Shown here piece after piece: positions 6,068 through 63,376 of a stretch of DNA of 64,000 bases. The position numbers and the translations under genes were made by a program. Origin of the DNA: Nannocystis pusilla (GTDB taxonomy: Bacteria; Myxococcota_A; Polyangia; Nannocystales; Nannocystaceae); the NCBI RefSeq assembly GCF_026626665.1, contig NZ_JAPNKE010000002.1, positions 1,421,204 through 1,485,203 on the forward strand, written 5' to 3'. Numbering within the stretch: the stretch's first letter is position 1; each line of letters begins with the position of its first letter. Below the pieces are notes generated by a model, which saw nothing but the letters and a program-made list of their open reading frames with translations, was not told where the DNA came from and searched no databases.

Positions 6068-6143
6068 GCGGGCATGCTATCAGGCCCCGGAGGGCCGTGG
6101 AGGGGCGGGTGGCCGCGGGACGGGGCGGCGCGGCCGCGGCGGT

Positions 6144-7859: not shown

Positions 7860-8093
7860 CTAGCGCCTCGCGTCGATCTTCTGCGCCAGCGCGGCGAAGG
7901 TCTTGATCCCCTGGAGCTCGTAGTCGGGCAGCTCGACGTCGAACTCGTCCTCGACGTCCGAGATGAGCTCGACGGCCTGGAAGCTGTCGATGCCGAGGCG
8001 CTCGAACAGGTCGTCCTCGGCGCGGAGCTGGGCCGGGTCGGCGCCGAAGCGCTTGGCGGCGAGACGGATGAGGGTGTCGAGGGAGGTGCTCAT
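7860..8093 (-). CDS. Acyl carrier protein (phosphopantetheine attachment site)
   Basis: 77 aa, LGIDSFQAVELI with the DSF serine context. Its ATG overlaps the ECH stop (ATGA). Confidence 0.8.
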   Translation of the reverse strand: MSTSLDTLIRLAAKRFGADPAQLRAEDDLFERLGIDSFQAVELISDVEDEFDVELPDYELQGIKTFAALAQKIDARR

Positions 8094-8861
8094 GGCAGGT
8101 ACGGTCTCAGGTCGGTGGACTCGACGAAGCGCTTGAGGGCGGCCAGCAGCGCCGGGCCCTCGGCGAGGCGGACGAACAGCTCGCGCTCGGCGAGCAGCTC
8201 GTCCTTCGGGAGCTTCTTGATGAAGGCCTTGGCGGCCTCGCGCGCGGTCTTGTCGAACTTGGCGGTCTGGGCCGCGAGCGCGCGCGGCGGTGATGCCCTC
8301 GCCGCTGGCGAGGACCTGGCTGACGAGGCCGGCCGCCAGCGCCTTCTTGGCGTTGATGCTGCGGCCGCTCAGCAGGAGGTCGCGGATGAGGCCGTTGCCG
8401 ACGTCGCGGCGCAGCCGCGGGATGCCGCCGAAGCCGGGGATGATGCCGAGGCGCAGCTCGGGGAAGCAGAAGCGCGCGGTCTTCTCGGCGATCAGGACGT
8501 CGCAGGTGAGCGCGAGCTCGAAGCCGCCGCCGAAGCAGACGCCGTGGACGACGCCGACGGTGGTCAGCGGCAGCATGTCGAGGTCGTCCATGACGCCGTG
8601 GATGGCGTCGATGAACTGGCGGATCTGCGGCCCGTGCTGATCCTTCGGCGCGTCGGAGAGGCCGCGGTAGAGCTCGCGCAGGTCGGCGCCGGCGCAGAAG
8701 CCCTGGCGCAGGCCGCTGCGCAGGATCAGGGTGTGCGCGTCGCGATCGACCTGGTCGAGGAAGCGGCGCAGATCGGCGAGCATGGCCGTGCCGATCTCGT
8801 TGCACGGCGGCCTGGCGAGGGTCAGCTCGTACACGCCTTCGCTGTAGGTCCAGTCGATCAT
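8090..8861 (-). CDS. Enoyl-CoA hydratase/isomerase (crotonase fold), apparent 1-nt frameshift near 8285-8295
   Basis: MIDWTYSEGVYELTL...GFCAGADLRE...VHGVCFGGGFELALTCD is the crotonase signature. After a GCGCGCG run the C-terminus continues in another frame (...AAQTAKFDKTAREAAKAFIKKLPKDELL...) and ends in a TGA that overlaps the ACP ATG. Length 772 nt. Confidence 0.65.
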
Positions 8862-11970: not shown

Positions 11971-11980
11971 GTTCGAAGGG

Positions 11981-13124
<1,144 letters not shown>

Positions 13125-13128
13125 GGTG

Positions 13129-14814
13129 TCAGACGACCTCGGCGTGGGGCGCGGGCGCGGCCTCGGGCGAGCGCAAGCGGAAGGGGTGGCGCGGGGCGTA
13201 GCTCTCGGGGGTCTTGTTCTCGAACAGCGGGAAGCACCACTTGCGAAGCCCGGGGATGTGGACGTCGATCCAGTAGTGGCGCCAGTCGATGCTGCGCGGG
13301 TCGCAGTCCCACTCGGGCTCGACGACGGGGTGCCGCAGCAGGTTGCGGGTGACGAACGCGAAGTAGTTGTCGTGGATGAACGGCAGGTAGAGCTCGCACA
13401 TGCGCTCGATCTTGTCGATCGCCTCGAGCGCGTCCTCGGTGTGCTCGACGAGGTCGCCGAGCCGGCGGCGGATGAACTCCGGCCAGCCCTTCGGTGGGTC
13501 GCGCAGCCACTCGTCGACCGACTCGGTCATCTTGCGCACGTTCTCGATCCGCATCGGGTGGTCGGGCGTGACGGCGATCGCGTCCCAGCGCGACTTGACG
13601 ACGCGGTCGAGGGTGGTGTCGCCGCGGGTGCGCAGGTGCTTGCGGTGGGCCAGCGCGACCAGCTCGACGGCGCGGTCGATGGTGAGGAGGTTGAGGTCCG
13701 AGCTGCCGCACTGGTAGACCGGCGCGTGCGCGCCCCGCATCAGCGCGGCGCCGGCGACGGTCATGCCGCGGCAGACGTAGTCGACCGGGATGATGTCGAA
13801 CGGGTTGCCCCGCTTGCACGGCAGGTGGCGGAACCAGCTGCCGAGCGCGTAGCTCAGCGGGCCGCAGGTGTTGAAGCCCTGGTTCCACCCGGGGAACGGG
13901 TAGCTCATGGCGCTCTCGACGATCGCGGGGCGGAACATGCTCCACCGGCCGGGATCGAGGCGGCGGGCGATCCACGCCTCGGCCATGTTCTTGGTGTACG
14001 TGTAGATGTTGGTGAAGCCCCAGCGGCCGGCGCGGCGCTGGCCCTCGGCGACCATCGCGTCCTTCAAGAGGTTGCGCTTGATCCGGCGGGCGGTGTTGCG
14101 CACCAGCATCGCGTTGGTCTCGTCGCCGCCCTTGTCGCGGATCTGCTTGACCGCGTCGTCGTGGGCGCGCCTGTCCATCTCCGGCGACTCGTGCTCGGCG
14201 AGGATGGCGTCGATGCTGGCCTGGACCTCGGCGCACTCGACCTCGACGTCGAACGGATCGCCGGCGGGCGAGAGGTCGGGGCGGATGTCCTCGGGGATGA
14301 GGCCGTTCTTCTTGCCGGTGACGTAGCAGGTCGAGATGTGCAGCAGCACCGCCTTGTCGCAGGCGGCGACGAAGTTGGCGGCGTTGCGGGCGCCCTCGAC
14401 GTTGGTCGTCATGGCGTCGCGCAGGTCGGGGTCGAAGTCGACGAGGCCGGCGCAGTTGATCACGAGGTCGATGTCGCGGCGCAGGCGGGCCAGCACCGCC
14501 GGGTCCTCGACGCCCATGTCGGGCAGCGAGACGTCGCCGGAGACGACCTCGATCCGCTCGCTGATGAAGCGGCTCATCTCGGCGCCGTACTTCTCGTGCA
14601 GCGGGCGGAAGCACGGCGAGGTCTGGACCTGGCGCTCGAACCGGTCGGCGGCGGGGCGCAGCGCCTTCTTGCGGGTGAGCACGTAGATCTTGCCGACGTC
14701 CGGGACGTGCTGCAGGACCATCGCCAGCCAGACCTTGCCGAGGAAGCCGGTGACCCCGGTGAGCAGGACGTGGCGGCCGGCGTAGCTGTGCTTGATCGAG
14801 ATCGGCGTGTTCAC
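13129..14814 (-). CDS. Fatty acyl-CoA reductase (FAR / male-sterility-type, alcohol-forming)
   Basis: HVLLTGVTGFLGKV Rossmann motif with a YTYTK active-site context; 561 aa, two-domain FAR-like architecture. Confidence 0.7.
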   Translation of the reverse strand: MNTPISIKHSYAGRHVLLTGVTGFLGKVWLAMVLQHVPDVGKIYVLTRKKALRPAADRFERQVQTSPCFRPLHEKYGAEMSRFISERIEVVSGDVSLPDMGVEDPAVLARLRRDIDLVINCAGLVDFDPDLRDAMTTNVEGARNAANFVAACDKAVLLHISTCYVTGKKNGLIPEDIRPDLSPAGDPFDVEVECAEVQASIDAILAEHESPEMDRRAHDDAVKQIRDKGGDETNAMLVRNTARRIKRNLLKDAMVAEGQRRAGRWGFTNIYTYTKNMAEAWIARRLDPGRWSMFRPAIVESAMSYPFPGWNQGFNTCGPLSYALGSWFRHLPCKRGNPFDIIPVDYVCRGMTVAGAALMRGAHAPVYQCGSSDLNLLTIDRAVELVALAHRKHLRTRGDTTLDRVVKSRWDAIAVTPDHPMRIENVRKMTESVDEWLRDPPKGWPEFIRRRLGDLVEHTEDALEAIDKIERMCELYLPFIHDNYFAFVTRNLLRHPVVEPEWDCDPRSIDWRHYWIDVHIPGLRKWCFPLFENKTPESYAPRHPFRLRSPEAAPAPHAEVV

Positions 14815-14856
14815 GGGTGTCCTCCGGTTCCTGTCCCCAAGGTCAGTCGCGTAGTC

Positions 14857-15534
14857 TCAGTCGCGGTAGTCGATGATCGGCCAGTCGGCGTCCTTGGCGC
14901 TGCGGCGCAGGACGAAGTCGGGGTTGACGGCGCACGGCTTGCCGACGCGGGAGAGCAGCAGCATGTCCGGGCCGTGGGCGCCGTAGGCGGCGCAGCGCGC
15001 GAGCTGGAGGTCGTGCGCGGCGGCGTAGTCGTCGAGCCAGCGGCCGCCGACGTTCGAGCCGATGACCGGGTCGAGCAGCTTGCCGGTGGCCTCGCCGTCC
15101 TCGAACTCGATCTTGTTGTAGACGAGCTCGTCGTAGTGCTTGAGGTGACGCGCGAGCGGCTTCATGATCGGCTCGATGCTGTCCGACAGCAGCACGACCC
15201 GCCGGCCCTCGGCCTGCAGGCGCTTGAGCAGCTCGAGGCCCTGATCGAGGATCGTGTCCTTCAGGACATCCTCGGCGTACTCCTCGCAGAGGACCTCGAC
15301 GCGGTCCTGGCTCATGCCGCGGATGGCGAGGTGGGCGAGGCGGTGGGCCAGCGCGCGGTCGGTCTGACCGAGCAGGCGGTGGACCGGGGCGGCGAGGCCG
15401 ACCAGGCCGAGGCGGACGGCCCGCTCACCGAACTTCTTGGCGTTGCCGGCCAGATAGGCCGCCGCGCTGAGCACGCCGCGGGCGAGCAGGATGCCTTCGA
15501 CGCGGACGAATGCTGCCGTGTTGGTTTGTGTCAT
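14857..15534 (-). CDS. HAD-IB-like hydrolase fold protein with degenerate motif I
   Basis: ATG at 15534 (MTQTNTAAFVRVEGILL). HAD-like motifs II-IV are present (LLSDS..., K..., GD..D). Motif I reads FVRVEGIL instead of FDxDGTL. Confidence 0.5.
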   Translation of the reverse strand: MTQTNTAAFVRVEGILLARGVLSAAAYLAGNAKKFGERAVRLGLVGLAAPVHRLLGQTDRALAHRLAHLAIRGMSQDRVEVLCEEYAEDVLKDTILDQGLELLKRLQAEGRRVVLLSDSIEPIMKPLARHLKHYDELVYNKIEFEDGEATGKLLDPVIGSNVGGRWLDDYAAAHDLQLARCAAYGAHGPDMLLLSRVGKPCAVNPDFVLRRSAKDADWPIIDYRD

Positions 15535-47037: not shown

Positions 47038-48249
47038 TCAGCCGATGATCATGTCCTCGCGGCGGGCGACGCCCCCGGCGGCGAAGCGACCCGGGGACCA
47101 GCGCGCCAGCATCGGGTGGGCCTCGCCGAGGGCGAGCCAGCGCGCGAGCAGCCGACCCACCGCGGGCGCCATCATGAAGCCGTGCCCGGTGAAGCCGCAC
47201 ACCTGGATGAAGTCGGGGTGGCCGGGGCTCGGGCCGACGATCGCGTCGCCGTCGGGCGAGACGTCGTAAGGACCGACCCACTGCCGCAGGACCTTCATCG
47301 CCGCGGTGATCGGCATCAGGCGCGTGAGCGTGGCGCTGAGGTGGGTGAGGAAGCGGAGGCTGGAGTGGAGGGTGAGGCTCTCGTCGCTGCCGTCGGGTGC
47401 GTCGGGCAGGCTGATGCCGGTGACGAGCTCGCCGCGGGTGCTCTGGGAGAAGTAGAGGCCGCTCGAGAGGTCGACGACCAGCGGATCGAGGAAGGGCTTG
47501 AGCGGCTCGCTCGAGAGGATCTCGTGGCGGTGCGGGCGGTTGGGCAGGTCGATGCCGAGCTGGCGGTTGAGCGCGCCCGACCACGCGCCGGTGGCGTTGA
47601 CGACCCGGCGCGCGCGCACGACCTCGCCGGTGTGCAGGTGCAGCGCGAAGCCCTGGGCCAGCGGCTCGACGCGGACGACGCTGGTGTGCGTGCGCAGGAC
47701 GACGCCGCGCTCGACGGCCTTGGCGGCGTAGCCCCACACGAAGGCCCACGGGAACACGACGCCGTCTTCGGGGTTGAAGGTGGCGAGCCGGACCTCGGCG
47801 ACGTCGAGCTGGGGGACGATCGCCTGCGCCTCGGCGGCGGTGAGCAGGCGGGTCGGCGCCCCGACCTCGCCGTGCAGCTGGACGTTGCGCTCGAGCCGAC
47901 GCTCGCCGGCCTCGGTGCGGGCGAGGAACAGGTAGCCGCCCTGGCGGAACCACAAGTTGATGCCGAGCTGCTGCGCGAGGTCCTTGCACAGCTCGATGCT
48001 GTCCATCATCAGGCGGACGTTGCCGGCGTCGCCCCACTGCATGCGCACGCCGCCGCCGTTGCGGCCGGAGGCGCCGCTGACGAGGTAGCTGCGCTCGATG
48101 ACGGCGATCGACAGCGGCGGCTTGCCCTTGCCGCCCGACAGCAGAGCCAGGTGGTAGGCGAGCCCCAGGCCCATGATGCCGCCGCCGATCACCGCGACGT
48201 CGACGTCGGCCGGCAGCGGGGTGTCGGCGCGGCCCATCGCTACGGTCAT
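47038..48249 (-). CDS. FAD-dependent oxidoreductase, sarcosine-oxidase-beta/HcnC/opine-oxidase-subunit-B-like
   Basis: ATG at 48249 (MTVAMGR...). VAVIGGGIMG dinucleotide-binding motif; DAO family architecture. Confidence 0.65.
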   Translation of the reverse strand: MTVAMGRADTPLPADVDVAVIGGGIMGLGLAYHLALLSGGKGKPPLSIAVIERSYLVSGASGRNGGGVRMQWGDAGNVRLMMDSIELCKDLAQQLGINLWFRQGGYLFLARTEAGERRLERNVQLHGEVGAPTRLLTAAEAQAIVPQLDVAEVRLATFNPEDGVVFPWAFVWGYAAKAVERGVVLRTHTSVVRVEPLAQGFALHLHTGEVVRARRVVNATGAWSGALNRQLGIDLPNRPHRHEILSSEPLKPFLDPLVVDLSSGLYFSQSTRGELVTGISLPDAPDGSDESLTLHSSLRFLTHLSATLTRLMPITAAMKVLRQWVGPYDVSPDGDAIVGPSPGHPDFIQVCGFTGHGFMMAPAVGRLLARWLALGEAHPMLARWSPGRFAAGGVARREDMIIG

Positions 48250-48539
48250 GGCGACGGCTCCTCCGGGTGCTCGGTCGCGCCGGCCGCGAGGGCGGCGAAG
48301 GTGACGGGCTCGACCGGCGGGCGGGCGGTGAACGGGCGCAGGGCGGCGGGCGCGATCAGGTTGCGGGCGACGAGCAGCCGCCCCAGCGCCGACAGGCACT
48401 CCTTGCCCTGGCACGGCCCGGTGCCGAGGCCGGTGTAGCGCTTGATCTCCTCGACGTCGATCAGACCGGCGGCGATGGCCCGCTCGATCTCCGTCAGAGT
48501 GACGTCCTCGCAGCGACAGACGAAGGTGCGCGCGGTCAT
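48246..48539 (-). CDS. (2Fe-2S)-binding small subunit (HcnA / opine-oxidase-subunit-C-like)
   Basis: 97 aa. The CRCEDVT...GTGPCQGKEC cysteine pattern is typical of the BFD-like 2Fe-2S subunit. ATGA overlaps the downstream gene. Confidence 0.55.
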   Translation of the reverse strand: MTARTFVCRCEDVTLTEIERAIAAGLIDVEEIKRYTGLGTGPCQGKECLSALGRLLVARNLIAPAALRPFTARPPVEPVTFAALAAGATEHPEEPSP

Positions 48540-48590
48540 GGCAGGCCTCGCGGGGGCAGGAGAGAGGGCGACGGCGACCGCAGGGACAGG

Positions 48591-49928
48591 TCAGGCGCGG
48601 GCATGGCTGTCCTTCGGGTCAGGTGACTCGGCGAGCGCGCGCACCAGGGCGGCGGCGCAGCGGTCGACGGTGCCGCGGATCTCGGCGGGCGTGGTGGCGC
48701 CGGCCAGCTCGCCGACGGCCCACAGCGTCCACGGCGGAGGCGGAGCGGTCTGGGCGCCTTCGGCCTCGAGCGGGTGCGCGGCCGGGCCGGCGGCGATCCG
48801 GCCGTCGGCGTCGACGACGGGGGCGAAGCCGGCCCCGGTGAAGTGGATCGGGGCGCCGGCCTGGGCGGCCAGCTCGAAGGCGGGGGCGGGGTCGGGGGCG
48901 AGGGCGACGAGGTCGCAGCGGAGGATCTTGCCGTCCTCGAGCTGGACGCCCTTGACCCGGCGCGCGCCGATCAGCTTGCGCACGCGCGCCGGCGGGACCC
49001 GCTCGGCGGCGAGGGTGCTAGCGAGCAGCTCGGCGCGGGCGCCCTCGCCGATGACGACGACGCGCGCGCTCGACTTGCGACCTGTCTGTTCGAGCATGTC
49101 CGCGAGGCCACGTGCGGACACGACCCCGGGGAGGTCGTTGTTGGCCAGCGGGATGGTCGGCTCGTGGGCGCCGACGGCCAGGACGACGTGGCGCGGGCGC
49201 AGGCGGTGGAGCACCGGCGGCTGCTCGGAGGCGGCGGCCCACAGCCGCTCCTGCGGGTAGCAGGCGAACACGCCGACGCCGGCGAGGAGCCGCGCCGGGA
49301 GGTCGCTGCCGCCGAGGGCGGTGGCGGCGCGGCGCTCGACGACCAGCGGCGGGTGGCCGGCGGCGGTCAGGGCGGCCGCGAGCGCGCGGCCGGAGCGACC
49401 TGCCCCGATGACCAGGACCTCGGGGGCATGGTCGACGACGGCGGCGACGTCTTCGGGCGGCGCGTCGGGCAGCTCGCCGAAGCCGGCCAGCTCGCGGGCG
49501 ACGCCCTGCATCATCTGGTTGGCGATCCGCGGGTAGACGACGAGGTGGTGGTGATCGATGCCGCGGCGGAACACCTGGTCGACGAGGGCGGTCGGGTCGA
49601 GGCCGCCGTAGGTGTTCTGCGGCTCGACGCACATGTCCTCGCGGACAGGCGTGAGGCAGGCCCGCTGGTTGGGCCGGCCGTCGACGCGCACGAGGCAGGT
49701 GCCGCAGCCGCCGTGCAGGCAGGCGGGGCCGCGCAGCCGGCGGTACTTGGCGCTGCGGCTGGTGGCGAGCTCGCCGGCGGCGATCAACGCGGAGGCGACG
49801 GTGTCGCCGGGGCAGGCGGCGACCGGGGCGCCGTCCCAGCGGAAGGAGATCGTCGGAGGCCCGGGCGGTGCGAGCAGGGGTGCCTTGGGCACGCGCCTGC
49901 GATAGCACGCCGCGCCGCGCGGGGACAT
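48591..49928 (-). CDS. NAD(P)/FAD-dependent oxidoreductase with N-terminal 2Fe-2S domain (HcnB / sarcosine-oxidase-alpha-like)
   Basis: N-terminal C...CLHGGCGTC...C ferredoxin-like cluster; VLVIGAGRSG dinucleotide motif. Confidence 0.6.
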   Translation of the reverse strand: MSPRGAACYRRRVPKAPLLAPPGPPTISFRWDGAPVAACPGDTVASALIAAGELATSRSAKYRRLRGPACLHGGCGTCLVRVDGRPNQRACLTPVREDMCVEPQNTYGGLDPTALVDQVFRRGIDHHHLVVYPRIANQMMQGVARELAGFGELPDAPPEDVAAVVDHAPEVLVIGAGRSGRALAAALTAAGHPPLVVERRAATALGGSDLPARLLAGVGVFACYPQERLWAAASEQPPVLHRLRPRHVVLAVGAHEPTIPLANNDLPGVVSARGLADMLEQTGRKSSARVVVIGEGARAELLASTLAAERVPPARVRKLIGARRVKGVQLEDGKILRCDLVALAPDPAPAFELAAQAGAPIHFTGAGFAPVVDADGRIAAGPAAHPLEAEGAQTAPPPPWTLWAVGELAGATTPAEIRGTVDRCAAALVRALAESPDPKDSHARA

Positions 49929-53047: not shown

Positions 53048-54279
53048 TCAGCCCTCGGGCGCGCCGAGCTTGTCGCCGACCTCGCACAGGAAGTGCGGGC
53101 TCGACCAACCCTTGCCGTTCAGGTTGATCGCCTCGTAGCCGGTGAGGACGGGCGGCTGCACGTCGAGGTTCCAGTTGAAGTAGAGCGAGCAGCCGGCGCA
53201 GTTGGTGGTGCCTGGCTCTTTAAAGATCTTGTCGGTGACCCAGTAGGGCATCACGACGTCGGGGGCCTGCGGATCGGGCTTGGCGGCCCACTGCGGGCAG
53301 TCCTCGCTGTTGAGCGGCTTGCTCTCGCAGCTGAGGCCCGGGGTGACGGGATAGATGCCCATGATCGAGAGGTAGCCGGCGGCGTCGCTGTCGACGGCGA
53401 CGGTCGGGGGATAGTCGCCGTTGGTGTGGACCGGGGCGAACTCGGCGGCGCTCGCGGCGGTGACCGCGGCTCGCAGGTGCTCTTGGGTGCGCGGGGAGAA
53501 CAGGCGCAGGCCCCACGAGGCGCACTTCTCCTCGGCTTGCGCCGCGGTGAGCGGCTCGCCGATGAACTTGTCCGGATCCGGCGGGTTCGGGACCAGCGTG
53601 CCCGAGGCGTACTTCAAAAAGTGTAGCCGCCGCCGTCGGCCTGCATGTCGCACCAGACGGTCAGCTGCCTGTCCAGACGCCGGATCGAGTAGAGGCCGGT
53701 CTCGGCCGCGTCGCCCCAGCCGGTCCGGATGTCGAGGCACGAGGTCGCCTGCGTGCAGTCGGGGAGGCATCCGTACATCAGCTCGGGGTCGTCGCAGACC
53801 TCGCCGTCGGCCGCCTGCAACGTGCCGTCGCCGCAGTGGGGGGAGAAGTCCTTGCAGTACTTGCCGCAGTGGCCGTAGGTGCCGTTCTTGCCCTTGCCGT
53901 CGTCGCAGACCTCGTCGCCGGTCTCGATCAGGCCGTCGCCGCAGATGTTCCAGCGGCACGAAGCGGTGCACGTGCGATCGTCGCCGTTGGCGTCGCCCTC
54001 GTCGCACTGCTCGGGCACGTCGATCTTGCCGTTGCCGCACGGCGCGGGCGTCGGGTCGCCGGTCGAGCCGCTGTCGCCGTCGCTGCCGCCCGGATCGACG
54101 GTGGTGGTCATGATGCCGGGAAACGTGGTGCCGCTGCTGCTGCTGCCGCCGGCAGACGCCTCGGCCGCGGTCGGATCGATCTGCCCGCCGTTGCGATCGA
54201 GACAGCCCGCCAGCATCAGAGCCACAGCGATGCGCCAGTCGACGCCCACCCGGACGCGAAGAGGGATGCGTGCGTGCAT
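53048..54279 (-). CDS. Lipoprotein with Myxococcus-type cysteine-rich repeats (CxxCGDG...CDDG), apparent 1-nt frameshift in a T-run near 53620-53630
   Basis: MHARIPLRVRVGVDWRIAVALMLAGC lipobox. The repeats read CGNGKIDVPEQCDEGDANGDD..C, CGDGLIETGDEVCDDG and CGDGTLQAADGEVCDDPE. The C-terminal ~200 aa are in the frame of ORF 53048-54340. Confidence 0.5.
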
Positions 54280-54408: not shown

Positions 54409-55608
54409 TCACTCGCTCGGCGCGGTGACCCGCTGCGGCTGCACGCGAGAGCTCCGCAGCATGTCCTGGAACGGGTTGTCGTCGCGCCAGACGTCGCCCG
54501 CGAGCATGCTGATGAGGCCGCGCCGCAGCTGGGGGTCGGGCGTGCGGGCGAAGAACAGGTGCGACACGAGCCGCGTGTGGTAAAAGCGGCGGATCAGCTG
54601 CTCGAAGCTGTCGTAGGCGACCTGCATGGTGGCGTGGACCGGGGCCATGAGATCGGCCGCGGCCTCGCGGCCCTCGGCGAGCGCCGGGACGAGGAGGTCG
54701 ACGGTGCGCTCGGCGCCCAGCATCGCCAGCGAGACGCCCGACGAGAACACGGGGTCGAGGAATGCGCAGGCGTCGCCGACGCAGGCCCAGCGCGGGCCGG
54801 AGGGGCGGGTGTTCTTGTAGCTCCAGTTGCGGATCGTCCGCGTGGCGCTGCGCGTGGCCCCGGCGGTGAGCCGACGGCACAGCGGCGAGGCAGCCAGGGC
54901 GGCCTCGAAGGCGTCGTCGTCGAGCTTGCCCCGCCACTTCACGAGGCCGACGCTGAGCCGACCGCCGTGCATGGGGATGAGCCAGTGCCAGCCGTCCTCG
55001 ACGATCAGCACCTTGATGTTGCCCTGCTCGCCGAGCTCGGCGCGGACCTCGGGCGAGAGGTCGTCGAAGTGGCAGAAGACGGCGGCGCGCCCGAGCTCGT
55101 GCAGCGGGGCGATCGTGCGGGCGCCGCGGCCGAGCATGGCGTCCTGGCCGGTGCAGTCGAGGAGGAAGCGGGCCTTGTGCTCCTCGCGCTCGGTGACGAC
55201 GCGGACGTGATCGGCGGCGAACTCGATGTCGCGCACGCGCTCGGCGAAGCGGATGTCGGCGCCGTGGCTCCTGGCGACGTCGCACAGCATGGTGTCGAAG
55301 CTGGCGCGGTCGACCTGCCAGGCGTGCGAGGGCGTGCCCTCGAGGCCGTCGGCGAAGCTGAAGAAGGCGAACTCGCCGGTGCGCTCGTCGATGAACTCGG
55401 CGCCCTGCTTGAACTGCCAGCGCGTGCGATCCATGGCGACGCCGAGGCGGGCGAAGATCGGCAGGTCGATCGGCAGCAGCGACTCGCCGATGTGGAAGCG
55501 CGGGAACACGTCCTTGTCGAGCGTGACGGCCCGGACGCCCGCCTGCGCGAGCAAGTTGGCGGCGGTCGATCCGGCCGGGCCGGCCCCGACGATCAGGACG
55601 TCGTGCAT
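54409..55608 (-). CDS. Flavin-dependent halogenase-like FAD oxidoreductase (GxGxxG, WxWxIP, FxDPxFSxG motifs)
   Basis: VLIVGAGPAGSTAA; GWHWLIP; FLDPVFSSG. This motif combination is characteristic of tryptophan-halogenase-type enzymes, but substrate and halide use are unverifiable here. Confidence 0.55.
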   Translation of the reverse strand: MHDVLIVGAGPAGSTAANLLAQAGVRAVTLDKDVFPRFHIGESLLPIDLPIFARLGVAMDRTRWQFKQGAEFIDERTGEFAFFSFADGLEGTPSHAWQVDRASFDTMLCDVARSHGADIRFAERVRDIEFAADHVRVVTEREEHKARFLLDCTGQDAMLGRGARTIAPLHELGRAAVFCHFDDLSPEVRAELGEQGNIKVLIVEDGWHWLIPMHGGRLSVGLVKWRGKLDDDAFEAALAASPLCRRLTAGATRSATRTIRNWSYKNTRPSGPRWACVGDACAFLDPVFSSGVSLAMLGAERTVDLLVPALAEGREAAADLMAPVHATMQVAYDSFEQLIRRFYHTRLVSHLFFARTPDPQLRRGLISMLAGDVWRDDNPFQDMLRSSRVQPQRVTAPSE

Positions 55609-55615
55609 GACCGGG

Positions 55616-56338
55616 TCATACCATGCCGCCGTTGATGCCGATCACCTGACCGGTGATGTACGCGGCGGCGTCGCTGGCGAGGAAGGCGACCAGCGCGGCG
55701 ACCTCGGGGGCGGTGCCGAGCCGCTGCGCGGGGATCCGCGGCATCACGTGGTCGAGCGGGACGTCTTTGATCATGTCGGTGTCGACGAGGCCCGGCGACA
55801 CCGCGTTGACGGTGACGCCCTTGCGGGCGAGCTCGAGCGCCAGCGATTTGGTCGCGCCGATGACGCCGGCCTTGGCCGCGGCGTAGGCGACCTGCCCGCG
55901 GTTGCCGAGCTGGGCCGAGACGGAGCTCATGGTGATGATCCGGCCCCACTTGCGCCGCACCATCGGCATGATCACCGGGCGGGTCACGTTGTAGAAGCCG
56001 CCCAGGCTGGTCCGAAGGACAGCTTCCCAGTCGGCCCGCTCGAGCGCGGGGAACGGGGCGTCGCGGGCGATCCCGGCGTTGTTGACGAGGACCCCGAGCG
56101 GCCGCGGGTCGGCGAGGATGGCGTTCATCGCCGCGTCGGCGGCCGCGTCGTCGCCGACGTCGAAGCGGCTGAGGACGACCTCGCCGCCGGCGGCGCGGAT
56201 CCGGGCGGCGACGGCCTCGGCGGCGGCGTCGTCGCTGCGGTAGTTGAGGATGATGGGGTGGCCGGCGGCCGCGAGGGCCTCGGCGATCGCGGCGCCGATC
56301 CCTCGACTGGCGCCGGTGACGAGCGCGCGTGGCTTCAT
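55616..56338 (-). CDS. fabG: 3-oxoacyl-ACP reductase
   Basis: TGASRGIG, NNAG and YAAAKAG (YxxxK) SDR motifs. Confidence 0.8.
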   Translation of the reverse strand: MKPRALVTGASRGIGAAIAEALAAAGHPIILNYRSDDAAAEAVAARIRAAGGEVVLSRFDVGDDAAADAAMNAILADPRPLGVLVNNAGIARDAPFPALERADWEAVLRTSLGGFYNVTRPVIMPMVRRKWGRIITMSSVSAQLGNRGQVAYAAAKAGVIGATKSLALELARKGVTVNAVSPGLVDTDMIKDVPLDHVMPRIPAQRLGTAPEVAALVAFLASDAAAYITGQVIGINGGMV

Positions 56339-56784
56339 GCGGGGCTCCCTGCGGAGGTGCTGGATGGGGCGGTGGAGACGACGGATAGCACGGCCTCGGC
56401 CAGCGGCTGGCCGCGGCGCGTGACGGCGGCGCGGTACTCGGCCATGGCGCCGGCGAACACGCGGGTGGCGACGATCTGCAGCGGGTCGCCGACGGCGAGG
56501 TGCTCGGCGTGCAGGTCGAAGTTGCGGCAGGCGGCGATGAGGCCGAGCGCCGGCGGCTGATGGTCGGCGCGCGCGCGCAGGCCGGCGAACGCGGCGATCG
56601 CCTGGGCCATGTACTCGAGCAAGACCGAGGCGTGGACCCGGCCGTCGATGACGAACAGGTTGTCGGGGCGGACCTGCGCCGCGCAGGTGATGTCGTCGGC
56701 GCCGGCGGCCACGACCTCGTCGAGCAGCAGCATCGGCGGGCGCTGCGGGACCAGCTCGGCCACCGGCGGGAAGGCGGCGGTCAT
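56335..56784 (-). CDS. Hotdog-fold 3-hydroxyacyl-ACP dehydratase (FabZ/ApeI-like)
   Basis: 150 aa with MLLLDEV...HASVLLEYMAQ context. ATGA overlaps on both sides. Confidence 0.5.
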   Translation of the reverse strand: MTAAFPPVAELVPQRPPMLLLDEVVAAGADDITCAAQVRPDNLFVIDGRVHASVLLEYMAQAIAAFAGLRARADHQPPALGLIAACRNFDLHAEHLAVGDPLQIVATRVFAGAMAEYRAAVTRRGQPLAEAVLSVVSTAPSSTSAGSPA

Positions 56785-57584
56785 GCCCCGGCTCCGAGTG
56801 TGCACTGCCAGCCGACCGCGAGGTGCGGCTCGAGGGCGATCCGCGCCGGGGCGCCGGCGGCCAGCGCCTCGACCAGGGCGAGCGCGGCGGCGCACGGGTT
56901 TTCGGCCAGGGCGGCCGGGACCGGACGTGGCGCCGGGAGCATGTCGCTGGGGCCATGTTCGAGGCGACATGTCCTCGCGGGCATGTCGCCGGGGACAGGC
57001 GCCGACAGGGCGAAGGCGGCGGCGAACGGGTCCCAGCGGCGGCCGGCGGCCAGCGGCTCGGGCAGCGGCTCCTCGGCGATCACGAGCACCACGTCGCCCT
57101 CGCCGGCGGCCACGAGGGCGGCGCACTCGACGAGGCCCATGGCGAGGGTGCTGCGGCCGGCCGACAGCGCGGCGTTGCCGGCCCGGTTGCCGGTGGCGAT
57201 CGAGACGTAGCCGGCGGCCGTGTTGTGGACGCTGTTGTGGAACTTGGTCGGCGACAGCGGCTCGCCGGCGACGAGCAGGGCGGCGAGCAGGTCGAGGGTG
57301 GTGCGGATCTCGCCGTAGACGGAGCCGTAGACGAGGGTGGCCGCGGCCCGGTCGACGCCGCCGTCCTGCAGCGCCTGGGCCGCGACCTCGGCGGCCATGC
57401 GGGTGAGCAGGCTGGTGCGCCGGCGCATCATCGGCGGCAGCAGCTCGGCCTTCGGGGCGGAGGGCTCGGTCGGCGGCGCCTGTCCTTCGGGCCAGGTGTC
57501 GGGCCGGGCCCGCCAGGCGGCGAGGTCGGGGTAGCCTGGGGTCCAGAAGCCGAGGCCGCGGACGGTGAAGGCGAGCGCGCTCAT
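56781..57584 (-). CDS. Beta-ketoacyl synthase N-terminal-domain protein without catalytic Cys (chain-length-factor-like, PF13723-like)
   Basis: MSALAFTVRGLGFWTPGY...TKFHNSVHNTAAGYVSI matches the KS-N family found in aryl-polyene-type clusters. It contains an in-frame GGACATG-repeat insert. Confidence 0.45.
   Translation of the reverse strand: MSALAFTVRGLGFWTPGYPDLAAWRARPDTWPEGQAPPTEPSAPKAELLPPMMRRRTSLLTRMAAEVAAQALQDGGVDRAAATLVYGSVYGEIRTTLDLLAALLVAGEPLSPTKFHNSVHNTAAGYVSIATGNRAGNAALSAGRSTLAMGLVECAALVAAGEGDVVLVIAEEPLPEPLAAGRRWDPFAAAFALSAPVPGDMPARTCRLEHGPSDMLPAPRPVPAALAENPCAAALALVEALAAGAPARIALEPHLAVGWQCTLGAGA
56931..57010. repeat. GGGCATGTCGC...GCGACATGTCCTCGCGGGCATGTCGCC repeat cluster lying in frame inside the KS-N-like CDS
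   Basis: Encodes ...PGDMPARTCRLEHGPSDMLPAP... on the minus strand. Confidence 0.55.
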
Positions 57585-57617
57585 GCCGGGCCTCGGACGA
57601 GGCGTGGGGTCAGAGCT

Positions 57618-57729
57618 GAACTTCGGGACATGGCCCGGAAGACCTGTACGAAAGAGCAGCCGCACGGACAGAGGCGCCGCCGGGGAGGTGTCGTCGGGGA
57701 CATGTCCCGGGAGACCTGTCGGAAGGTGC
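57618..57729. repeat. Two GGACATG-family units (GAACTTCGGGACATGGCCCGGAAGACCTGTACG and GGGGACATGTCCCGGGAGACCTGTCGGAAGG)
   Basis: Intergenic, between the KAS stop (57730) and the KS-N-like start (57584). Confidence 0.65.
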
Positions 57730-58911
57730 TCATGCGGGGCCTCCGACGAGGACGCTGCAGTTGCTGCCGCCGAACGCGAACGAGTTGCTGAGCGCGGCGC
57801 GGGTGGGGACGTCGCGGCGGGCGGTGACCACGTCGACCGCGAGGGTGTCGTCGAGCGGGTCGGCGCCGACGCTGGCGGGCAGGTAGCGGCCAGCGATGGC
57901 GTCGATCACGAAGGCGACCTCGGTGGCGCCGGCGGCCCCGAGCATGTGCCCGGTGTAGCCCTTGGTGGCGACGACCGCGGGCGCGGTGGCGCCGGCGAAC
58001 ACGGCCCGGATCGCCGCGCTCTCCATGCTGTCGTTCTGCTTGGTGCCGGTGCCGTGGGCGTTGACGTGGTCGACGTCGGCGGCGGAGAGGCCCGCGTGCC
58101 GGAGCGCGCGCTCCATCGCCAGGCGCGCGCCGAGGCCCTCGGGGTGCGGGCTCGTCATGTGGTAGGCGTCGGAGCTCTCGCCGACGCCGAGCAGGCGGGC
58201 CGGGCCTTCACCTGTCCGTTCGACCAGGAGCAGCGCGGCGCCCTCGCCGATGTTGATGCCGGCGCGCTCGCTCGAGAACGGGCGACATGGCCGCGAGGAC
58301 AGGACCTCGAGCCCGGCGAAGCCGCGCACGGTGAGGCGGCACAGGCTGTCGACGCCGCCGACCAACACCGCGTCGCACAGGCCGGCGGCGAGCAATCGCT
58401 GGGCCGAGGCGAACACCTTGGCGGACGAGGAGCAGGCGGTCGAGACGACGTAGGCCGGGCCGCCGAGGCCGCCGCCGAGGACGCGAGCGACGTGCAGGAC
58501 GGCGTCGAGGGCGTGCGAGGTCTCGACGTCGTAGTCGGCCGGGAGGGCGCCGCCGTGGGCCTGCGCGTGGGCGTAGGCCGTCTCGCTGGCCTCGATGCCG
58601 CCGGTGCTGGTGCCGAGGACGACGGCGACGCGGTCCGAGCCCCAGCGGGCGCGCGCGCGATCCAGCGGGGCCTGCAGCTCGGCCAGCGCGACGGCGGCGA
58701 TCCGCGTCTGCCGGGTGTCGCGGACCGGGCCGAGGAAGCCGGGCAGCGGCGGCAGCGGGGTCGGGATGGCGCCGACGACCGCGTCGAGCTCGAACTCGGC
58801 GGGGCACGGGCCGAGGCCGGAGCGACCGGCACGCAAGGCCGCGAGCACCGCGGCGGTGCTGTCGCCCATGCCGTTGCACAGGGCCATGGCGGTGATGGGG
58901 TACGGCTGCAT
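57730..58911 (-). CDS. Beta-ketoacyl-ACP synthase (FabF/FabB-like KAS I/II)
   Basis: STACSSS active-site Cys, HVNAHGTGT and GHMLGAAG His/Gly motifs. Confidence 0.8.
   Translation of the reverse strand: MQPYPITAMALCNGMGDSTAAVLAALRAGRSGLGPCPAEFELDAVVGAIPTPLPPLPGFLGPVRDTRQTRIAAVALAELQAPLDRARARWGSDRVAVVLGTSTGGIEASETAYAHAQAHGGALPADYDVETSHALDAVLHVARVLGGGLGGPAYVVSTACSSSAKVFASAQRLLAAGLCDAVLVGGVDSLCRLTVRGFAGLEVLSSRPCRPFSSERAGINIGEGAALLLVERTGEGPARLLGVGESSDAYHMTSPHPEGLGARLAMERALRHAGLSAADVDHVNAHGTGTKQNDSMESAAIRAVFAGATAPAVVATKGYTGHMLGAAGATEVAFVIDAIAGRYLPASVGADPLDDTLAVDVVTARRDVPTRAALSNSFAFGGSNCSVLVGGPA

Positions 58912-60404: not shown

Positions 60405-63376
<2,972 letters not shown>

What the first reader, a model, noticed from the sequence alone, without database searches (positions are those of the whole stretch)
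54409..58911. FAS-II-like mini-cluster (KAS, KS-N/CLF-like, hotdog dehydratase, FabG) coupled to a WxWxIP flavin-dependent halogenase-like gene
Five co-directional genes have 4-nt ATGA overlaps between the KS-N, DH and FabG genes. The combination of a chain-length-factor-like KS-N protein with a dedicated KAS, DH and KR resembles aryl-polyene or flexirubin-type type-II assembly lines. The adjacent halogenase-like enzyme shows GWHWLIP and FxDPxFSSG motifs. Together this suggests production of a halogenated fatty-acyl, polyene or resorcinol-type lipid. No ACP or adenylation gene is present within the cluster, so the cluster may be incomplete or may borrow the primary ACP.
Basis: partly seen in the sequence, partly recalled or inferred. 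Interest (0 to 1): 0.65.

Follow-up and report, generated by a model that had tools for sequence, protein, structure and literature searches.

The report
Trimmed aryl-polyene synthase module with halogenase
Five tightly packed genes in a Nannocystis (myxobacterium) genome are the chain-elongating core and the halogenase of a well-known bacterial pigment (aryl polyene) pathway, stripped of the carrier proteins, starter and export genes that normally accompany them; it is a reduced variant of a known system, not a new kind.

Summary
On the minus strand, 54409-58911 holds five intact genes. They are an ApeO-type ketosynthase, an ApeC-type KS-N chain-length factor, an ApeP-like hotdog dehydratase subunit, an ApeQ-type ketoreductase and a flavin-dependent halogenase (FDH)-family enzyme. 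The halogenase-family enzyme has GxGxxG, Lys67, GWHWLIP and FLDPVFSSG. The ATGA overlaps at KS-N/DH and DH/KR are real.

The window is about 90% identical to Nannocystis bainbridge. Orthologues of all five genes lie inside complete aryl-polyene (APE)/flexirubin-like clusters in Enhygromyxa, Myxococcaceae, Polyangia and Planctomycetota. Those clusters carry two ACPs, an acyltransferase, an AMP-ligase-ApeI fusion, an ammonia lyase, ApeR, LolA, MMPL and DUF3261.

In a monophyletic Nannocystis-like clade (bootstrap 200/200) only the five genes remain. There they are always followed by one or two copies of a clade-restricted, fibrinogen-like, Cys-rich lipoprotein gene.

Catalytic residues are kept, and dN/dS is below 1 against the nearest relative (0.07-0.50). 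However, the module has no ACP, no starter-activating enzyme and no His-donating ApeI half of the dehydratase, so it cannot be self-sufficient.

The most likely reading is an APE-derived elongation and halogenation module that works with partners encoded elsewhere. The product is unknown. I rate it a new variant of a known kind, of moderate interest.

The parts
57730..58911 (-). ApeO-type elongating ketosynthase (KAS), 393 aa. The Cys160/His286/His322 triad is intact.
   Evidence: NCBIfam PRK09185 scores 442 bits (cutoff 407), while it falls below the FabF and FabB cutoffs. The best PDB hits are 6QSP_A (ApeO, 2.8e-75) and 7F28_B (A. baumannii ApeO). The active-site motifs are conserved in all orthologues. 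dN/dS is 0.17 against N. bainbridge.
57585..57729 (-). Spacer between KAS and KS-N created by a 149-bp insertion. The flanking 24-nt direct repeats lie at 57579-57602 and 57728-57751. Two internal 33-nt repeats (57625-57657 and 57697-57729) contain the palindrome GGGACATGTCCC.
   Evidence: The insertion is absent in N. bainbridge, where KAS and KS-N overlap. Related insertions with one or two copies of the element occur in N. exedens and N. punicea.
56781..57584 (-). ApeC-type KS-N / chain-length-factor partner of the ketosynthase, 267 aa. It has no active-site Cys.
   Evidence: PF13723 Ketoacyl-synt_2 at 3e-41. The best PDB hits are 7F28_A and 6QSP_B, both ApeC. dN/dS is 0.45.
56335..56784 (-). 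ApeP-like hotdog dehydratase subunit, 149 aa. Glu57 is conserved. The canonical FabZ His position is Arg49. His51 is present only in the closest Nannocystis relatives.
   Evidence: PF22817 ApeP-like at 2.8e-10. The best PDB hit is 6QSR_B, ApeP. Alignment of 22 orthologues. The ATGA overlaps on both sides are confirmed.
55616..56338 (-). ApeQ-type 3-ketoacyl-ACP reductase, 240 aa. It has Ser139/Tyr152/Lys156. It also has the ApeQ-type 'PGL' Leu and the basic patch residues.
   Evidence: NF004200 scores 326 bits; FlxB and FabG2 fall below their cutoffs. The best PDB hits are 7CZC, 7CAW and 6NRP (the A. baumannii ApeQ group) at about 240 bits, against 186 bits for E. coli FabG 1I01. Motifs are conserved. 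dN/dS is 0.07.
54409..55608 (-). Flavin-dependent halogenase-family enzyme, 399 aa, of the short 'carrier-protein substrate' type. It has G8xG10xxG13, Lys67, G206WHWLIP212 and F283LDPVFSSG291.
   Evidence: PF04820 at 6.6e-29. All PDB sequence hits are halogenases, plus 3NIX. Lys67 aligns with RadH Lys74. The AlphaFold model has pLDDT 83, and its top 40 fold matches are 3NIX, ChlB4, PltA, FasV, Mpy16, Bmp2, CmlS, CndH, PltM, RadH and CtcP. dN/dS is 0.28.
53048..54279 (-). Conserved downstream neighbour: a lipoprotein with a lipobox (LAGC), DUF4215 Cys-rich repeats and a fibrinogen-like 'YCDxxxxGGGW' C-terminal domain. In this window it is split by a 1-nt frameshift near 53617. Whether it belongs functionally to the module is not established.
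   Evidence: It is one 408-aa ORF in N. bainbridge. It hits PF13948 and, weakly, PF00147. One or two copies lie directly downstream of the FAD gene in all ten reduced loci outside the window (L001-L008, L089, L091), and the window carries a frameshifted copy. It is found in none of the full-cluster loci. The family has about 41 full-length clusters, all from Nannocystis-like organisms.

Best explanation
This is the elongation core of an aryl-polyene (APE/flexirubin-type) type II polyketide synthase, together with the flavin-dependent halogenase that travels with such clusters in Myxococcota. An ancestor of the Nannocystis-like clade had a complete APE cluster, and these five genes are what is left of it.

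Inferred mechanism, from the characterised Xenorhabdus and Acinetobacter systems:
- The ApeO-type ketosynthase pairs with the Cys-less ApeC-type KS-N protein and condenses malonyl-ACP onto an ACP-bound chain.
- The ApeQ-type reductase reduces the 3-keto group.
- The ApeP-like hotdog protein supplies the catalytic Glu of a dehydratase that forms the trans double bond.
- There is no enoyl reductase, so repeated cycles give a conjugated polyene.
- The halogenase, using reduced flavin and halide, chlorinates or brominates the carrier-bound substrate.

The locus is not self-sufficient. It has no carrier protein, no starter-activating ligase and no His-donating ApeI half of the dehydratase. It also lacks ApeR and any lipid-anchoring or export genes. 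It therefore has to work with partners encoded elsewhere in the genome.

Shown here: gene identities, orthology to full clusters, clade-wide conservation, intact catalytic residues and dN/dS below 1 against the nearest relative. Inferred: the chemistry, the halogenation, the nature of the partners and the product.
For: Family and structure matches of all five proteins are to APE components or to FDHs.

A genome scan with the FAD enzyme found that almost every orthologue of at least about 41% identity whose locus extended far enough lies beside ApeO/ApeC/ApeP/ApeQ-type genes. In Enhygromyxa, Nannocystaceae ST9, Myxococcaceae, Polyangia and Planctomycetota these are embedded among other genes of the standard APE set. 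The full set (two ACPs, LPLAT, an AMP-ligase-ApeI fusion, GT2, a lipid A-type acyltransferase, an aromatic ammonia lyase, ApeR, LolA, MMPL, DUF3261) is seen in loci such as L086, L088 and L022.

The reduced five-gene form is monophyletic (200/200 NJ bootstrap on KAS+KR+FAD) and nested among full-cluster lineages. It is present with the same synteny in N. bainbridge, N. exedens and N. punicea.

The catalytic Cys-His-His, Ser-Tyr-Lys and FDH Lys/WxWxIP/FxxPxxSxG residues are all conserved.

dN/dS against N. bainbridge is 0.07-0.50, compared with 0.13 for the neighbouring glyA.

Dehydratase logic: in the 22 aligned myxobacterial and planctomycete ApeP-like proteins the Glu is invariant. The canonical FabZ-type His position is not conserved and carries His in only one of them. 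The one ApeI-like domain examined, from the full cluster in L086, has the GHF His but Gln in place of Glu. [quoted passage not shown]

ApeO-ApeC alone can make the full-length polyene in vitro (PMC8358021), so the loss of ApeR is tolerable.

The reductase keeps the ApeQ-specific Leu ('PGL') and the basic patch that the A. baumannii work ties to a dedicated ACP and an aryl substrate (PMC8041823).

The presence or absence of a halogenase gene tracks brominated versus non-brominated xanthomonadin-type pigments (PMC3691225).
Against: No ACP, ApeI-like, FabZ-like, adenylating (APE-type), ammonia-lyase or export gene occurs in the 64-kb window or within 10 kb of the module in any of the ten reduced loci. 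I could not show that such partners exist elsewhere in a Nannocystis genome.

A search with ApeR gave no Nannocystis-labelled hit among the best 120, nor in 10 inspected clusters. That search was not exhaustive.

No APE-associated halogenase has, to my knowledge, been assayed. The nearest solved relative (3NIX) has no known function.

KS-N and DH evolve faster than the other genes (dN/dS 0.45-0.50). In the more distant comparison with L002 the DH pair gave 1.43, though synonymous sites are unreliable there.

In this genome the KAS/KS-N translational coupling is broken by an insertion.
Confidence: 0.6

Rival explanations
1. Autonomous, repurposed pathway. After the rest of the APE cluster was lost, the five enzymes came to use the housekeeping AcpP, malonyl-ACP and a housekeeping FabZ/FabA or a re-engineered ApeP homodimer. 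On this view they make a new, possibly halogenated, unsaturated lipid, perhaps functionally tied to the co-inherited fibrinogen-like lipoprotein.
For: The reduced form has persisted through deep divergence: FAD-enzyme identity within the clade falls to 57%. Reading frames are intact, catalytic residues are kept, and dN/dS against the nearest relative is below 1. A clade-restricted lipoprotein gene is invariably adjacent and is absent from the full clusters. No APE partner gene was found near any of the ten reduced loci. E. coli genetics suggests that AcpP can partly replace ApeF (PMC8253772). The window protein and N. bainbridge have a His two residues from the canonical position.
Against: The ApeQ-type reductase keeps the features linked to a dedicated ACP and an aryl substrate (PMC8041823). 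A. baumannii FabG and ApeQ are not interchangeable, and ApeO-ApeC binds its own ACP1 very tightly (PMC8041823, PMC8358021). Most members of the reduced clade have no His near the canonical dehydratase position. A halogenase of the carrier-bound-aromatic type has no obvious substrate on a plain acyl chain.
Confidence: 0.2
2. Non-functional evolutionary relic: a leftover fragment of a degraded APE cluster that is no longer used.
For: Functions that are essential in characterised APE systems are missing: ACPs, the ApeH/ApeI starter loading and the His half of the dehydratase. An insertion separates KAS from KS-N. KS-N and DH have the highest dN/dS. The flanking genes (glyA, a kinase, the lipoprotein) carry frameshifts in this assembly.
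Against: All five ORFs are intact in the window and in at least ten other genomes or MAGs of the clade (the L007 KAS copy aligns incompletely). dN/dS against N. bainbridge is 0.07-0.28 for KAS, KR and the FAD enzyme, comparable to glyA at 0.13. Every catalytic residue checked is conserved, and the ATGA coupling is retained. A relic would not survive to 57% protein identity without disruption.
Confidence: 0.08
3. The FAD enzyme is not a halogenase but a related flavin monooxygenase or reductase. It would hydroxylate an aryl ring, or act as the missing enoyl reductase, so the product would not be halogenated.
For: The closest solved structure (3NIX) is uncharacterised. There are weaker sub-threshold matches to QhpG, LodB/GoxB and the geranylgeranyl-reductase family. 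The module has no enoyl reductase. No flavin reductase gene is nearby.
Against: Lys67, WxWxIP and FxxPxxSxG are invariant across orthologues. Lys67 aligns with the catalytic Lys of RadH (residue role from my own knowledge). All characterised sequence and fold neighbours down to rank 40 are halogenases. Monooxygenases and Ta0516-type reductases appear only from rank 41, with lower TM-scores. The GG-reductase and QhpG models are far below their cutoffs.
Confidence: 0.12
4. These are ordinary housekeeping fatty-acid synthesis (FAS-II) genes.
For: The reductase passes an NCBIfam model named FabG. The module sits directly downstream of glyA, a housekeeping gene.
Against: The KAS is far below the FabF and FabB equivalog cutoffs and passes only the ApeO-type PRK09185 model. 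KS-N and ApeP-like proteins have no role in FAS-II. There is no FabD, FabH, AcpP, FabZ or FabI in the locus. All four genes have their best structural matches in APE proteins. The orthologues lie in APE clusters.
Confidence: 0.01

Closest known systems
Aryl polyene (APE) biosynthetic gene clusters of Gram-negative bacteria (E. coli CFT073, Xenorhabdus doucetiae, Acinetobacter baumannii; ApeA-ApeR)
   Same: It has the ApeO-type KS, the ApeC-type KS-N chain-length factor, the ApeP-like dehydratase subunit and the ApeQ-type ketoreductase. Each finds its best solved-structure match in the corresponding APE protein. As in APE clusters, there is no enoyl reductase.
   Different: It lacks the tandem ACPs (ApeE/F), ApeH/ApeI (starter loading and the His half of the dehydratase) and ApeR. 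It also lacks ApeD/J acyltransferases, ApeK, ApeL/M/N export genes and ApeB. It carries a halogenase-family gene, which the enterobacterial clusters, as I recall them, lack.
Full APE/flexirubin-like clusters of Myxococcota and Planctomycetota (for example Enhygromyxa salina, reported in PMC6226438; loci L014, L086, L088, L022)
   Same: All five genes are orthologous, at 53-68% identity for KAS, KR and the FAD enzyme. The local order KAS-KSN-DH-KR-(ApeR)-FAD is the same.
   Different: Those clusters add ApeR between KR and the FAD gene. They also have two ACPs, LPLAT, an AMP-ligase-ApeI fusion, GT2, a lipid A-type acyltransferase, an aromatic ammonia lyase, LolA, MMPL and DUF3261. The Nannocystis form has none of these and instead has the fibrinogen-like lipoprotein gene downstream.
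Xanthomonadin (brominated aryl polyene) clusters of Xanthomonas and the arcuflavin clusters of Azoarcus
   Same: These are type II KS/KS-N polyene synthases with an associated halogenase gene. The presence of the halogenase tracks bromination (PMC3691225, PMC3949708). The Azoarcus pathway is split over two unlinked loci, which is a precedent for partners encoded elsewhere (PMC3949708).
   Different: Their starter comes from a XanB2 chorismatase. The myxobacterial full clusters instead encode an ammonia lyase, and the window encodes neither. Orthology of the window's FAD enzyme to the xanthomonadin halogenase was not tested here.
Flavin-dependent halogenases acting on carrier-bound aromatic substrates (PltA, Mpy16, Bmp2, ChlB4) and the Cytophaga hutchinsonii flavoprotein 3NIX
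   Same: It shares the same fold (TM-score 0.79-0.86), the same short length of about 400 aa, and the GxGxxG, Lys, WxWxIP and FxxPxxSxG motifs. 3NIX also shares the C-terminal 'LAGxVW...NPF' region over its full length.
   Different: Sequence identity is only 24-31%. The substrate here is unknown, and no activity has been shown for this subfamily or for 3NIX.

Membership tests
Aryl polyene (APE) biosynthetic gene cluster | ApeO-type elongating ketosynthase with a Cys-His-His triad | tested here: met
   PRK09185 scores 442 bits (cutoff 407). The best PDB hits are ApeO (6QSP_A, 7F28_B). C160/H286/H322 are present.
Aryl polyene (APE) biosynthetic gene cluster | ApeC-type KS-N chain-length factor (PF13723) adjacent to the KS | tested here: met
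   PF13723 at 3e-41. The best PDB hits are ApeC (7F28_A, 6QSP_B).
Aryl polyene (APE) biosynthetic gene cluster | ApeQ-type ketoreductase | tested here: met
   The best PDB hits are the ApeQ group (7CZC, 7CAW, 6NRP). S139/Y152/K156 and the 'PGL' Leu are present.
Aryl polyene (APE) biosynthetic gene cluster | Heterodimeric dehydratase ApeI + ApeP | tested here: not met
   Only the ApeP-like half is present (PF22817). There is no ApeI-like or FabZ-like ORF in the six-frame translation of the window, nor within 10 kb in ten related loci.
Aryl polyene (APE) biosynthetic gene cluster | Two dedicated tandem ACPs (ApeE/ApeF) | tested here: not met
   phmmer and tblastn with AcpP and with APE ACPs find nothing in the locus. 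The only PP-binding domain in the window is the C-terminus of an enoyl-CoA hydratase fusion at 7860-8861.
Aryl polyene (APE) biosynthetic gene cluster | Starter-activating AasS/AMP-ligase (ApeH) and a starter supply | tested here: not met
   tblastn against the window finds no match to the AMP-ligase-ApeI fusion or to the ammonia lyase of the full clusters. The two AMP-ligases at 6144-10492 belong to a different cluster.
Aryl polyene (APE) biosynthetic gene cluster | Second ketosynthase ApeR | tested here: not met
   It is absent between KR and the FAD gene, which are only 7 nt apart, and absent elsewhere in the window. It is present at that position in the sister lineages.
Aryl polyene (APE) biosynthetic gene cluster | Lipid-anchoring and export genes (LPLAT, glycosyl/acyl transferases, LolA-like, MMPL, DUF3261) | tested here: not met
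   tblastn finds no matches in the window or in the reduced-type loci. Pfam annotation of the remaining window genes agrees.
Aryl polyene (APE) biosynthetic gene cluster | Orthology of the genes to those of complete APE clusters | tested here: met
   Almost every FAD orthologue of at least about 41% identity with enough flanking sequence is linked to ApeO/C/P/Q-type genes. The reduced clade is nested among full-cluster lineages.
Aryl polyene (APE) biosynthetic gene cluster | Production of an aryl polyene pigment | not testable with these tools
   This needs chemistry and genetics.
Flavin-dependent halogenases (FDH) | N-terminal FAD-binding GxGxxG | tested here: met
   G8-A-G10-P-A-G13. G8, G10 and G13 are invariant in 13 orthologues.
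Flavin-dependent halogenases (FDH) | WxWxIP motif | tested here: met
   G206-W-H-W-L-I-P212. W207/W209/I211/P212 are invariant in the 13-sequence alignment. One distant orthologue (L022) of 22 has His instead of Pro.
Flavin-dependent halogenases (FDH) | Catalytic lysine after the GESxxP segment | tested here: met
   Lys67 is invariant in the 13-sequence alignment. It aligns with RadH Lys74 and with the second Lys of the PltA 'PKKFG' segment. The catalytic role of those residues is from my own knowledge of the literature.
Flavin-dependent halogenases (FDH) | FxxPxxSxG motif | tested here: met
   F283-L-D-P-V-F-S-S-G291.
Flavin-dependent halogenases (FDH) | FDH fold rather than a monooxygenase or reductase fold | tested here: met
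   The AlphaFold2 model has pLDDT 83.4. Foldseek ranks 1-40 are halogenases plus 3NIX. Monooxygenases and a geranylgeranyl-reductase-like protein come from rank 41.
Flavin-dependent halogenases (FDH) | Halogenating activity with a partner flavin reductase | not testable with these tools
   No flavin reductase gene was recognised in the window. Activity needs biochemistry.
Housekeeping FAS-II (FabF/FabB, FabG, FabZ, AcpP) | KAS reaches the FabF or FabB equivalog threshold | tested here: not met
   TIGR03150 fabF scores 222 bits against a cutoff of 494. PRK07967 FabB scores 127 against 630.
Housekeeping FAS-II (FabF/FabB, FabG, FabZ, AcpP) | Presence of AcpP, FabD, FabH, FabZ and FabI in the operon | tested here: not met
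   None was detected.
Flexirubin biosynthesis (Bacteroidota type) | FlxB reductase at equivalog level, an ammonia lyase, and DarA/DarB dialkylresorcinol genes | tested here: not met
   FlxB scores 273 bits against a cutoff of 340. There is no ammonia lyase in the window. No DarA/DarB-like gene was seen in the Pfam annotation of the window.

The most novel reading that the evidence does not exclude
The Nannocystis-type module is a self-standing pathway that arose by trimming an APE cluster. On this reading the ApeO/ApeC/ApeP/ApeQ enzymes and the halogenase now work with the housekeeping carrier protein, and with a re-invented or borrowed dehydratase His. They would make a previously unknown halogenated unsaturated lipid. 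Its function would be tied to the clade-specific fibrinogen-like, Cys-rich lipoprotein that was acquired at the same locus.
Probability: 0.15. Interest if true: 0.6.

Novelty: new variant of a known kind. Interest (0 to 1): 0.35.

Why it matters

The comparison here shows that in Nannocystis and its relatives only the elongation core and the halogenase were kept. They were retained with intact reading frames and conserved catalytic residues, and they were joined to a clade-specific lipoprotein gene.

This gives a natural minimal set in which to ask three questions:
- Which APE components are truly indispensable?
- Can ApeO/ApeC/ApeQ use a non-cognate carrier protein?
- What does the never-assayed APE-associated halogenase subfamily, including the orphan structure 3NIX, actually do?

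It also warns against predicting an aryl-polyene pigment from this locus alone. If the partners lie elsewhere in the genome, it is an ordinary split cluster and of limited interest.

Tried and rejected
1. An exact look-up of the window's FAD protein in the contig index found nothing. Close relatives were used instead.

2. I looked for the missing partners in three ways.
- Six-frame searches of the window with AcpP, an ApeI-like domain and FabZ were negative.
- tblastn with 13 accessory proteins from the full clusters was negative in the window and in the reduced-type loci.
- A database search with ApeR from the sister lineage gave no Nannocystis-labelled protein in the best 120. Inspecting 10 of the roughly 68 candidate clusters gave none either.

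3. I first tried to use the 'longest contig' column as a proxy for organism. I abandoned this when the N. exedens and N. punicea FAD proteins turned out to be hidden inside a cluster whose representative comes from a 3.8-kb contig. The absence of ApeR from Nannocystis genomes therefore remains unproven.

4. dN/dS at larger distances (against L002 and L004) is unreliable, because GC3 is about 96% and synonymous sites behave as if constrained or saturated. The DH value of 1.43 against L002 is not interpretable. Only the comparison with N. bainbridge, with glyA as control, is used.

5. The conserved Gln reported as essential in the Lysobacter KS-N protein (PMC3691225) could not be located with confidence in the alignment. 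No claim is made about it.

6. The promoter and terminator scans gave nothing useful in this 72% GC DNA.

7. The first bootstrap script timed out and was re-run with a faster distance routine.

8. The idea that the distant lipid cluster at 4.4-15.5 kb supplies the ACP and ligases was considered. There is no evidence linking the two clusters, so it was not pursued.

Full report
**Observation**

The window is about 72% GC with GC3 near 96%, so raw ORF lists are crowded with spurious frames. A frame plot and a codon-usage gene caller, checked against frame translations, give five minus-strand genes that fill the reported interval exactly:
- KAS, 57730-58911
- KS-N, 56781-57584
- hotdog DH, 56335-56784
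- FabG-like KR, 55616-56338
- FAD enzyme, 54409-55608

The ATGA overlaps at KS-N/DH and DH/KR are present, and KR and the FAD gene are 7 nt apart. KAS and KS-N do not overlap in this genome.

**What the genes are**

Pfam and NCBIfam assign the genes as follows:
- The KAS belongs to PRK09185 (442 bits, cutoff 407). It is far below the FabF and FabB equivalog thresholds.
- The second gene is PF13723 (Ketoacyl-synt_2, 3e-41).
- The third is PF22817 ('ApeP dehydratase').
- The fourth is a FabG-named model. The flexirubin FlxB and FabG2 models score below their cutoffs.
- The fifth is PF04820 (Trp_halogenase, 7e-29). Its best NCBIfam match is the halogenase CmlS. It fails the geranylgeranyl-reductase subfamily cutoff (103 against 159 bits).

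Against solved structures, the best hits are the aryl-polyene proteins themselves:
- ApeO (6QSP_A, 7F28_B) for the KAS
- ApeC (7F28_A, 6QSP_B) for the KS-N
- ApeP (6QSR_B) for the DH
- the ApeQ group (7CZC, 7CAW, 6NRP), ahead of E. coli FabG, for the KR

7F28 is the A. baumannii ApeO-ApeC complex (PMC8358021). 6NRP is identical to A. baumannii ApeQ (PMC8041823).

**The FAD enzyme**

All PDB sequence hits are flavin-dependent halogenases, plus the uncharacterised Cytophaga hutchinsonii flavoprotein 3NIX. 3NIX aligns over the whole length, including the C-terminal LAGxVW...NPF region.

In an alignment of 13 orthologues spanning 53-90% identity to the window protein, the following are invariant:
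- G8/G10/G13 of the GxGxxG motif
- Lys67
- W207, W209, I211 and P212
- F283, D285, P286, F288, S289 and G291

They also hold across 22 orthologues of all cluster types, with one Pro-to-His exception in the WxWxIP motif. Lys67 aligns with RadH Lys74 and with the PltA 'PKKFG' lysine. That these residues are the catalytic lysines is from my own knowledge.

An AlphaFold2 model (pLDDT 83.4) was searched against the PDB. It returns 3NIX, ChlB4, PltA, FasV, Mpy16, Bmp2, CmlS, CndH, PltM, RadH and CtcP as ranks 1-40. Monooxygenases and a geranylgeranyl-reductase-like protein appear only from rank 41.

The nearest characterised relatives (PltA, Mpy16, Bmp2, ChlB4) act on carrier-protein-bound aromatic substrates. 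That is background knowledge and was not tested here. Activity remains untested.

**Source organism and relatives**

The FAD protein is 90% identical to a Nannocystis bainbridge protein. The window is colinear with that genome at about 90% nucleotide identity over at least 20 kb.

I scanned one genome per species with the FAD alignment and mapped the window proteins by tblastn. I then mapped 13 accessory proteins taken from annotated full clusters.

Almost every orthologue of at least about 41% identity whose locus extends far enough lies beside ApeO/ApeC/ApeP/ApeQ-type genes. Hits below about 40% identity mostly do not.

In Enhygromyxa, Nannocystaceae strain ST9, a Myxococcaceae MAG, Polyangia and Planctomycetota, the block is embedded among other APE genes. 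There it takes the form KAS-KSN-DH-KR-ApeR-FAD or KR-FAD-KAS-KSN-DH. The complete set is seen in loci such as L086, L088 and L022:
- two ACPs and an LPLAT
- an AMP-ligase-ApeI fusion
- GT2 and a lipid A-type acyltransferase
- an aromatic ammonia lyase
- LolA, MMPL and DUF3261

APE clusters in Enhygromyxa and Plesiocystis have been reported before (PMC6226438).

**The reduced form**

In the window and in ten further loci only the five genes are present. No other APE gene lies within 10 kb. The ten loci are:
- N. bainbridge
- N. exedens
- N. punicea
- a Nannocystis MAG
- a Nannocystaceae MAG
- five 'Myxococcales' or unnamed MAG or metagenome contigs (two near-identical pairs and one singleton)

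There is also none in the rest of the 64-kb window.

On a concatenated KAS+KR+FAD alignment the reduced loci form one clade with 200/200 NJ bootstrap support. That clade is nested among lineages with ApeR and accessory APE genes. The simplest history is a single reduction of an ancestral complete cluster, including excision of ApeR from between KR and the FAD gene.

**Is the reduced module alive?**

All five ORFs are intact in the reduced loci examined, although the L007 KAS copy aligns incompletely. The residues that are kept are:
- KAS Cys160/His286/His322
- KR Ser139/Tyr152/Lys156
- all the FDH motifs

Against N. bainbridge, Nei-Gojobori dN/dS values are:

| Gene | dN/dS |
|---|---|
| KAS | 0.17 |
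| KS-N | 0.45 |
| DH | 0.50 |
| KR | 0.07 |
| FAD enzyme | 0.28 |
| glyA (neighbouring control) | 0.13 |

With such extreme codon bias dS is probably underestimated. More distant comparisons are not reliable: the DH gave 1.43 against L002. The close comparison argues for function rather than decay.

**Why it cannot work alone**

Published work describes the APE dehydratase as an ApeI/ApeP heterodimer with a single active site (PMC8041823).

In the alignment of 22 myxobacterial and planctomycete ApeP-like proteins, the Glu of the '(L/I)E(Y/H)MAQ' segment is invariant (Glu57 here). The position of the FabZ/Xenorhabdus-ApeP His is usually Arg or Lys, and is Arg49 here. The one ApeI-like domain examined, from the full cluster in L086, carries the FabZ-type 'GHF..P..PG' His but has Gln where the Glu would be.

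So His comes from ApeI and Glu from ApeP, and the window encodes only the Glu half. The window protein and N. bainbridge have a His two residues downstream (His51). Other members of the reduced clade do not have it, so I do not rely on it.

The locus also lacks any carrier protein and any starter-activating enzyme.

Loss of ApeR is less serious, because ApeO-ApeC alone gives the full-length polyene in vitro (PMC8358021).

Aligned to 7CZC, the reductase keeps several features that the A. baumannii study ties to a dedicated ACP and an aryl substrate:
- the ApeQ-type Leu ('PGL', where FabG has Phe)
- Arg at the positions equivalent to 130 and 148
- Arg/Lys at 173/174

In that system FabG could not replace ApeQ (PMC8041823). 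This tilts the balance towards dedicated partners encoded elsewhere. The split arcuflavin clusters of Azoarcus are a precedent (PMC3949708). But it is an inference.

My attempts to find ApeR in Nannocystis through the protein database were inconclusive.

**Halogenation**

In xanthomonadin-type clusters, the presence of a halogenase gene goes with brominated pigments and its absence with non-brominated ones (PMC3691225). Azoarcus also annotates a halogenase in its cluster (PMC3949708). This is correlative support that APE-associated FDH-family genes halogenate the pigment.

In the myxobacterial full clusters an ammonia lyase suggests a coumarate- or cinnamate-type aryl starter that such an enzyme could halogenate while it is carrier-bound. 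In the reduced form no starter pathway is linked. The substrate of the retained halogenase is therefore the main open point.

**The conserved neighbour**

Directly downstream of the FAD gene, every reduced locus has one or two copies of a gene for a lipoprotein. The protein has a lipobox (LAGC), DUF4215 Cys-rich repeats and a C-terminal domain with a fibrinogen-like 'WCDMxADGGGY(T/S)F' start. NCBI names it 'fibrinogen-like YCDxxxxGGGW domain-containing protein'.

None of the full-cluster loci has it. Full-length relatives number only about 41 clusters, all Nannocystis-like. Several come from contigs of the same length as FAD-gene contigs.

The association is therefore specific to the reduced form, but its meaning is unknown. 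In the window this gene is split by a 1-nt frameshift.

**Verdict**

The locus is a trimmed, clade-conserved variant of a very well-known cluster family. It is not a new kind of system and it is not housekeeping FAS-II. Its interest lies in three things:
- the natural minimal gene set
- the unexplained retention of the halogenase
- the lipoprotein linkage

Its product cannot be predicted from this locus alone.

Noticed in passing
window 53048-54279 (-), frameshift near 53617: The conserved fibrinogen-like, DUF4215 Cys-rich lipoprotein gene downstream of the module is split into two ORFs by a 1-nt deletion relative to N. bainbridge, where it is a single 408-aa gene. The family is restricted to Nannocystis-like bacteria and is always adjacent to the reduced five-gene module.
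   Followed up: yes
window ~60085 (glyA, 58936-~60200, -) and ~61420 (kinase-TPR gene, 60405-63376, +): glyA (serine hydroxymethyltransferase) carries a 2-nt deletion inside the conserved 'SENY' codons. The Ser/Thr kinase-TPR gene is split into two ORFs. Both are single intact genes in N. bainbridge, N. exedens and N. punicea. Three frameshifts within 8.4 kb, one of them in a gene that is normally essential, suggest indel errors in this assembly rather than real pseudogenes. The five module genes are unaffected.
   Followed up: partly
window 57579-57751: A 149-bp insertion lies between KAS and KS-N, flanked by a 24-nt direct repeat that duplicates the KAS stop/KS-N start junction. It contains two 33-nt repeats with the palindrome GGGACATGTCCC. 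N. exedens has one copy of the element and N. punicea two; N. bainbridge has none, and there the genes overlap by ATGA. There are no other copies in the window. It may be a small mobile or regulatory element.
   Followed up: partly
window 4360-15474 (-): This is a separate lipid-type gene cluster. It encodes a PlsC-like acyltransferase, a YegS/DAG-kinase-like lipid kinase, two AMP-ligases and an enoyl-CoA hydratase fused to an ACP domain. It also encodes a pyruvyl-transferase-like protein, two fatty-acyl reductase (NAD_binding_4/'male sterility') genes, one of which appears N-terminally truncated, and a HAD hydrolase. The domain content recalls myxobacterial ether-lipid or fatty-alcohol pathways. 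It holds the only carrier-protein domain in the window, and no link to the APE-type module was found.
   Followed up: no
window 47038-49787 (-): A three-gene set (Fer2_4 protein, SO_alpha_A3/BFD-like [2Fe-2S] protein, DAO-family FAD oxidoreductase) resembles opine, sarcosine or HCN-synthase-type oxidases. It is conserved in the same position in N. bainbridge, N. exedens and N. punicea.
   Followed up: no
locus L087 (JGI metagenome 3300035199), 5686-11191: An intermediate architecture: six genes (KAS, KS-N, DH, KR, ApeR, FAD) with no other APE gene within 10 kb, apart from a PlsC-type acyltransferase 3.5 kb downstream. This shows that partial or split forms also occur in the sister lineage.
   Followed up: no
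locus L088, 6812-8020: In one full-cluster relative the KS-N and ApeP-like dehydratase are called as a single 402-aa fusion protein (PF13723 + PF22817).
   Followed up: no
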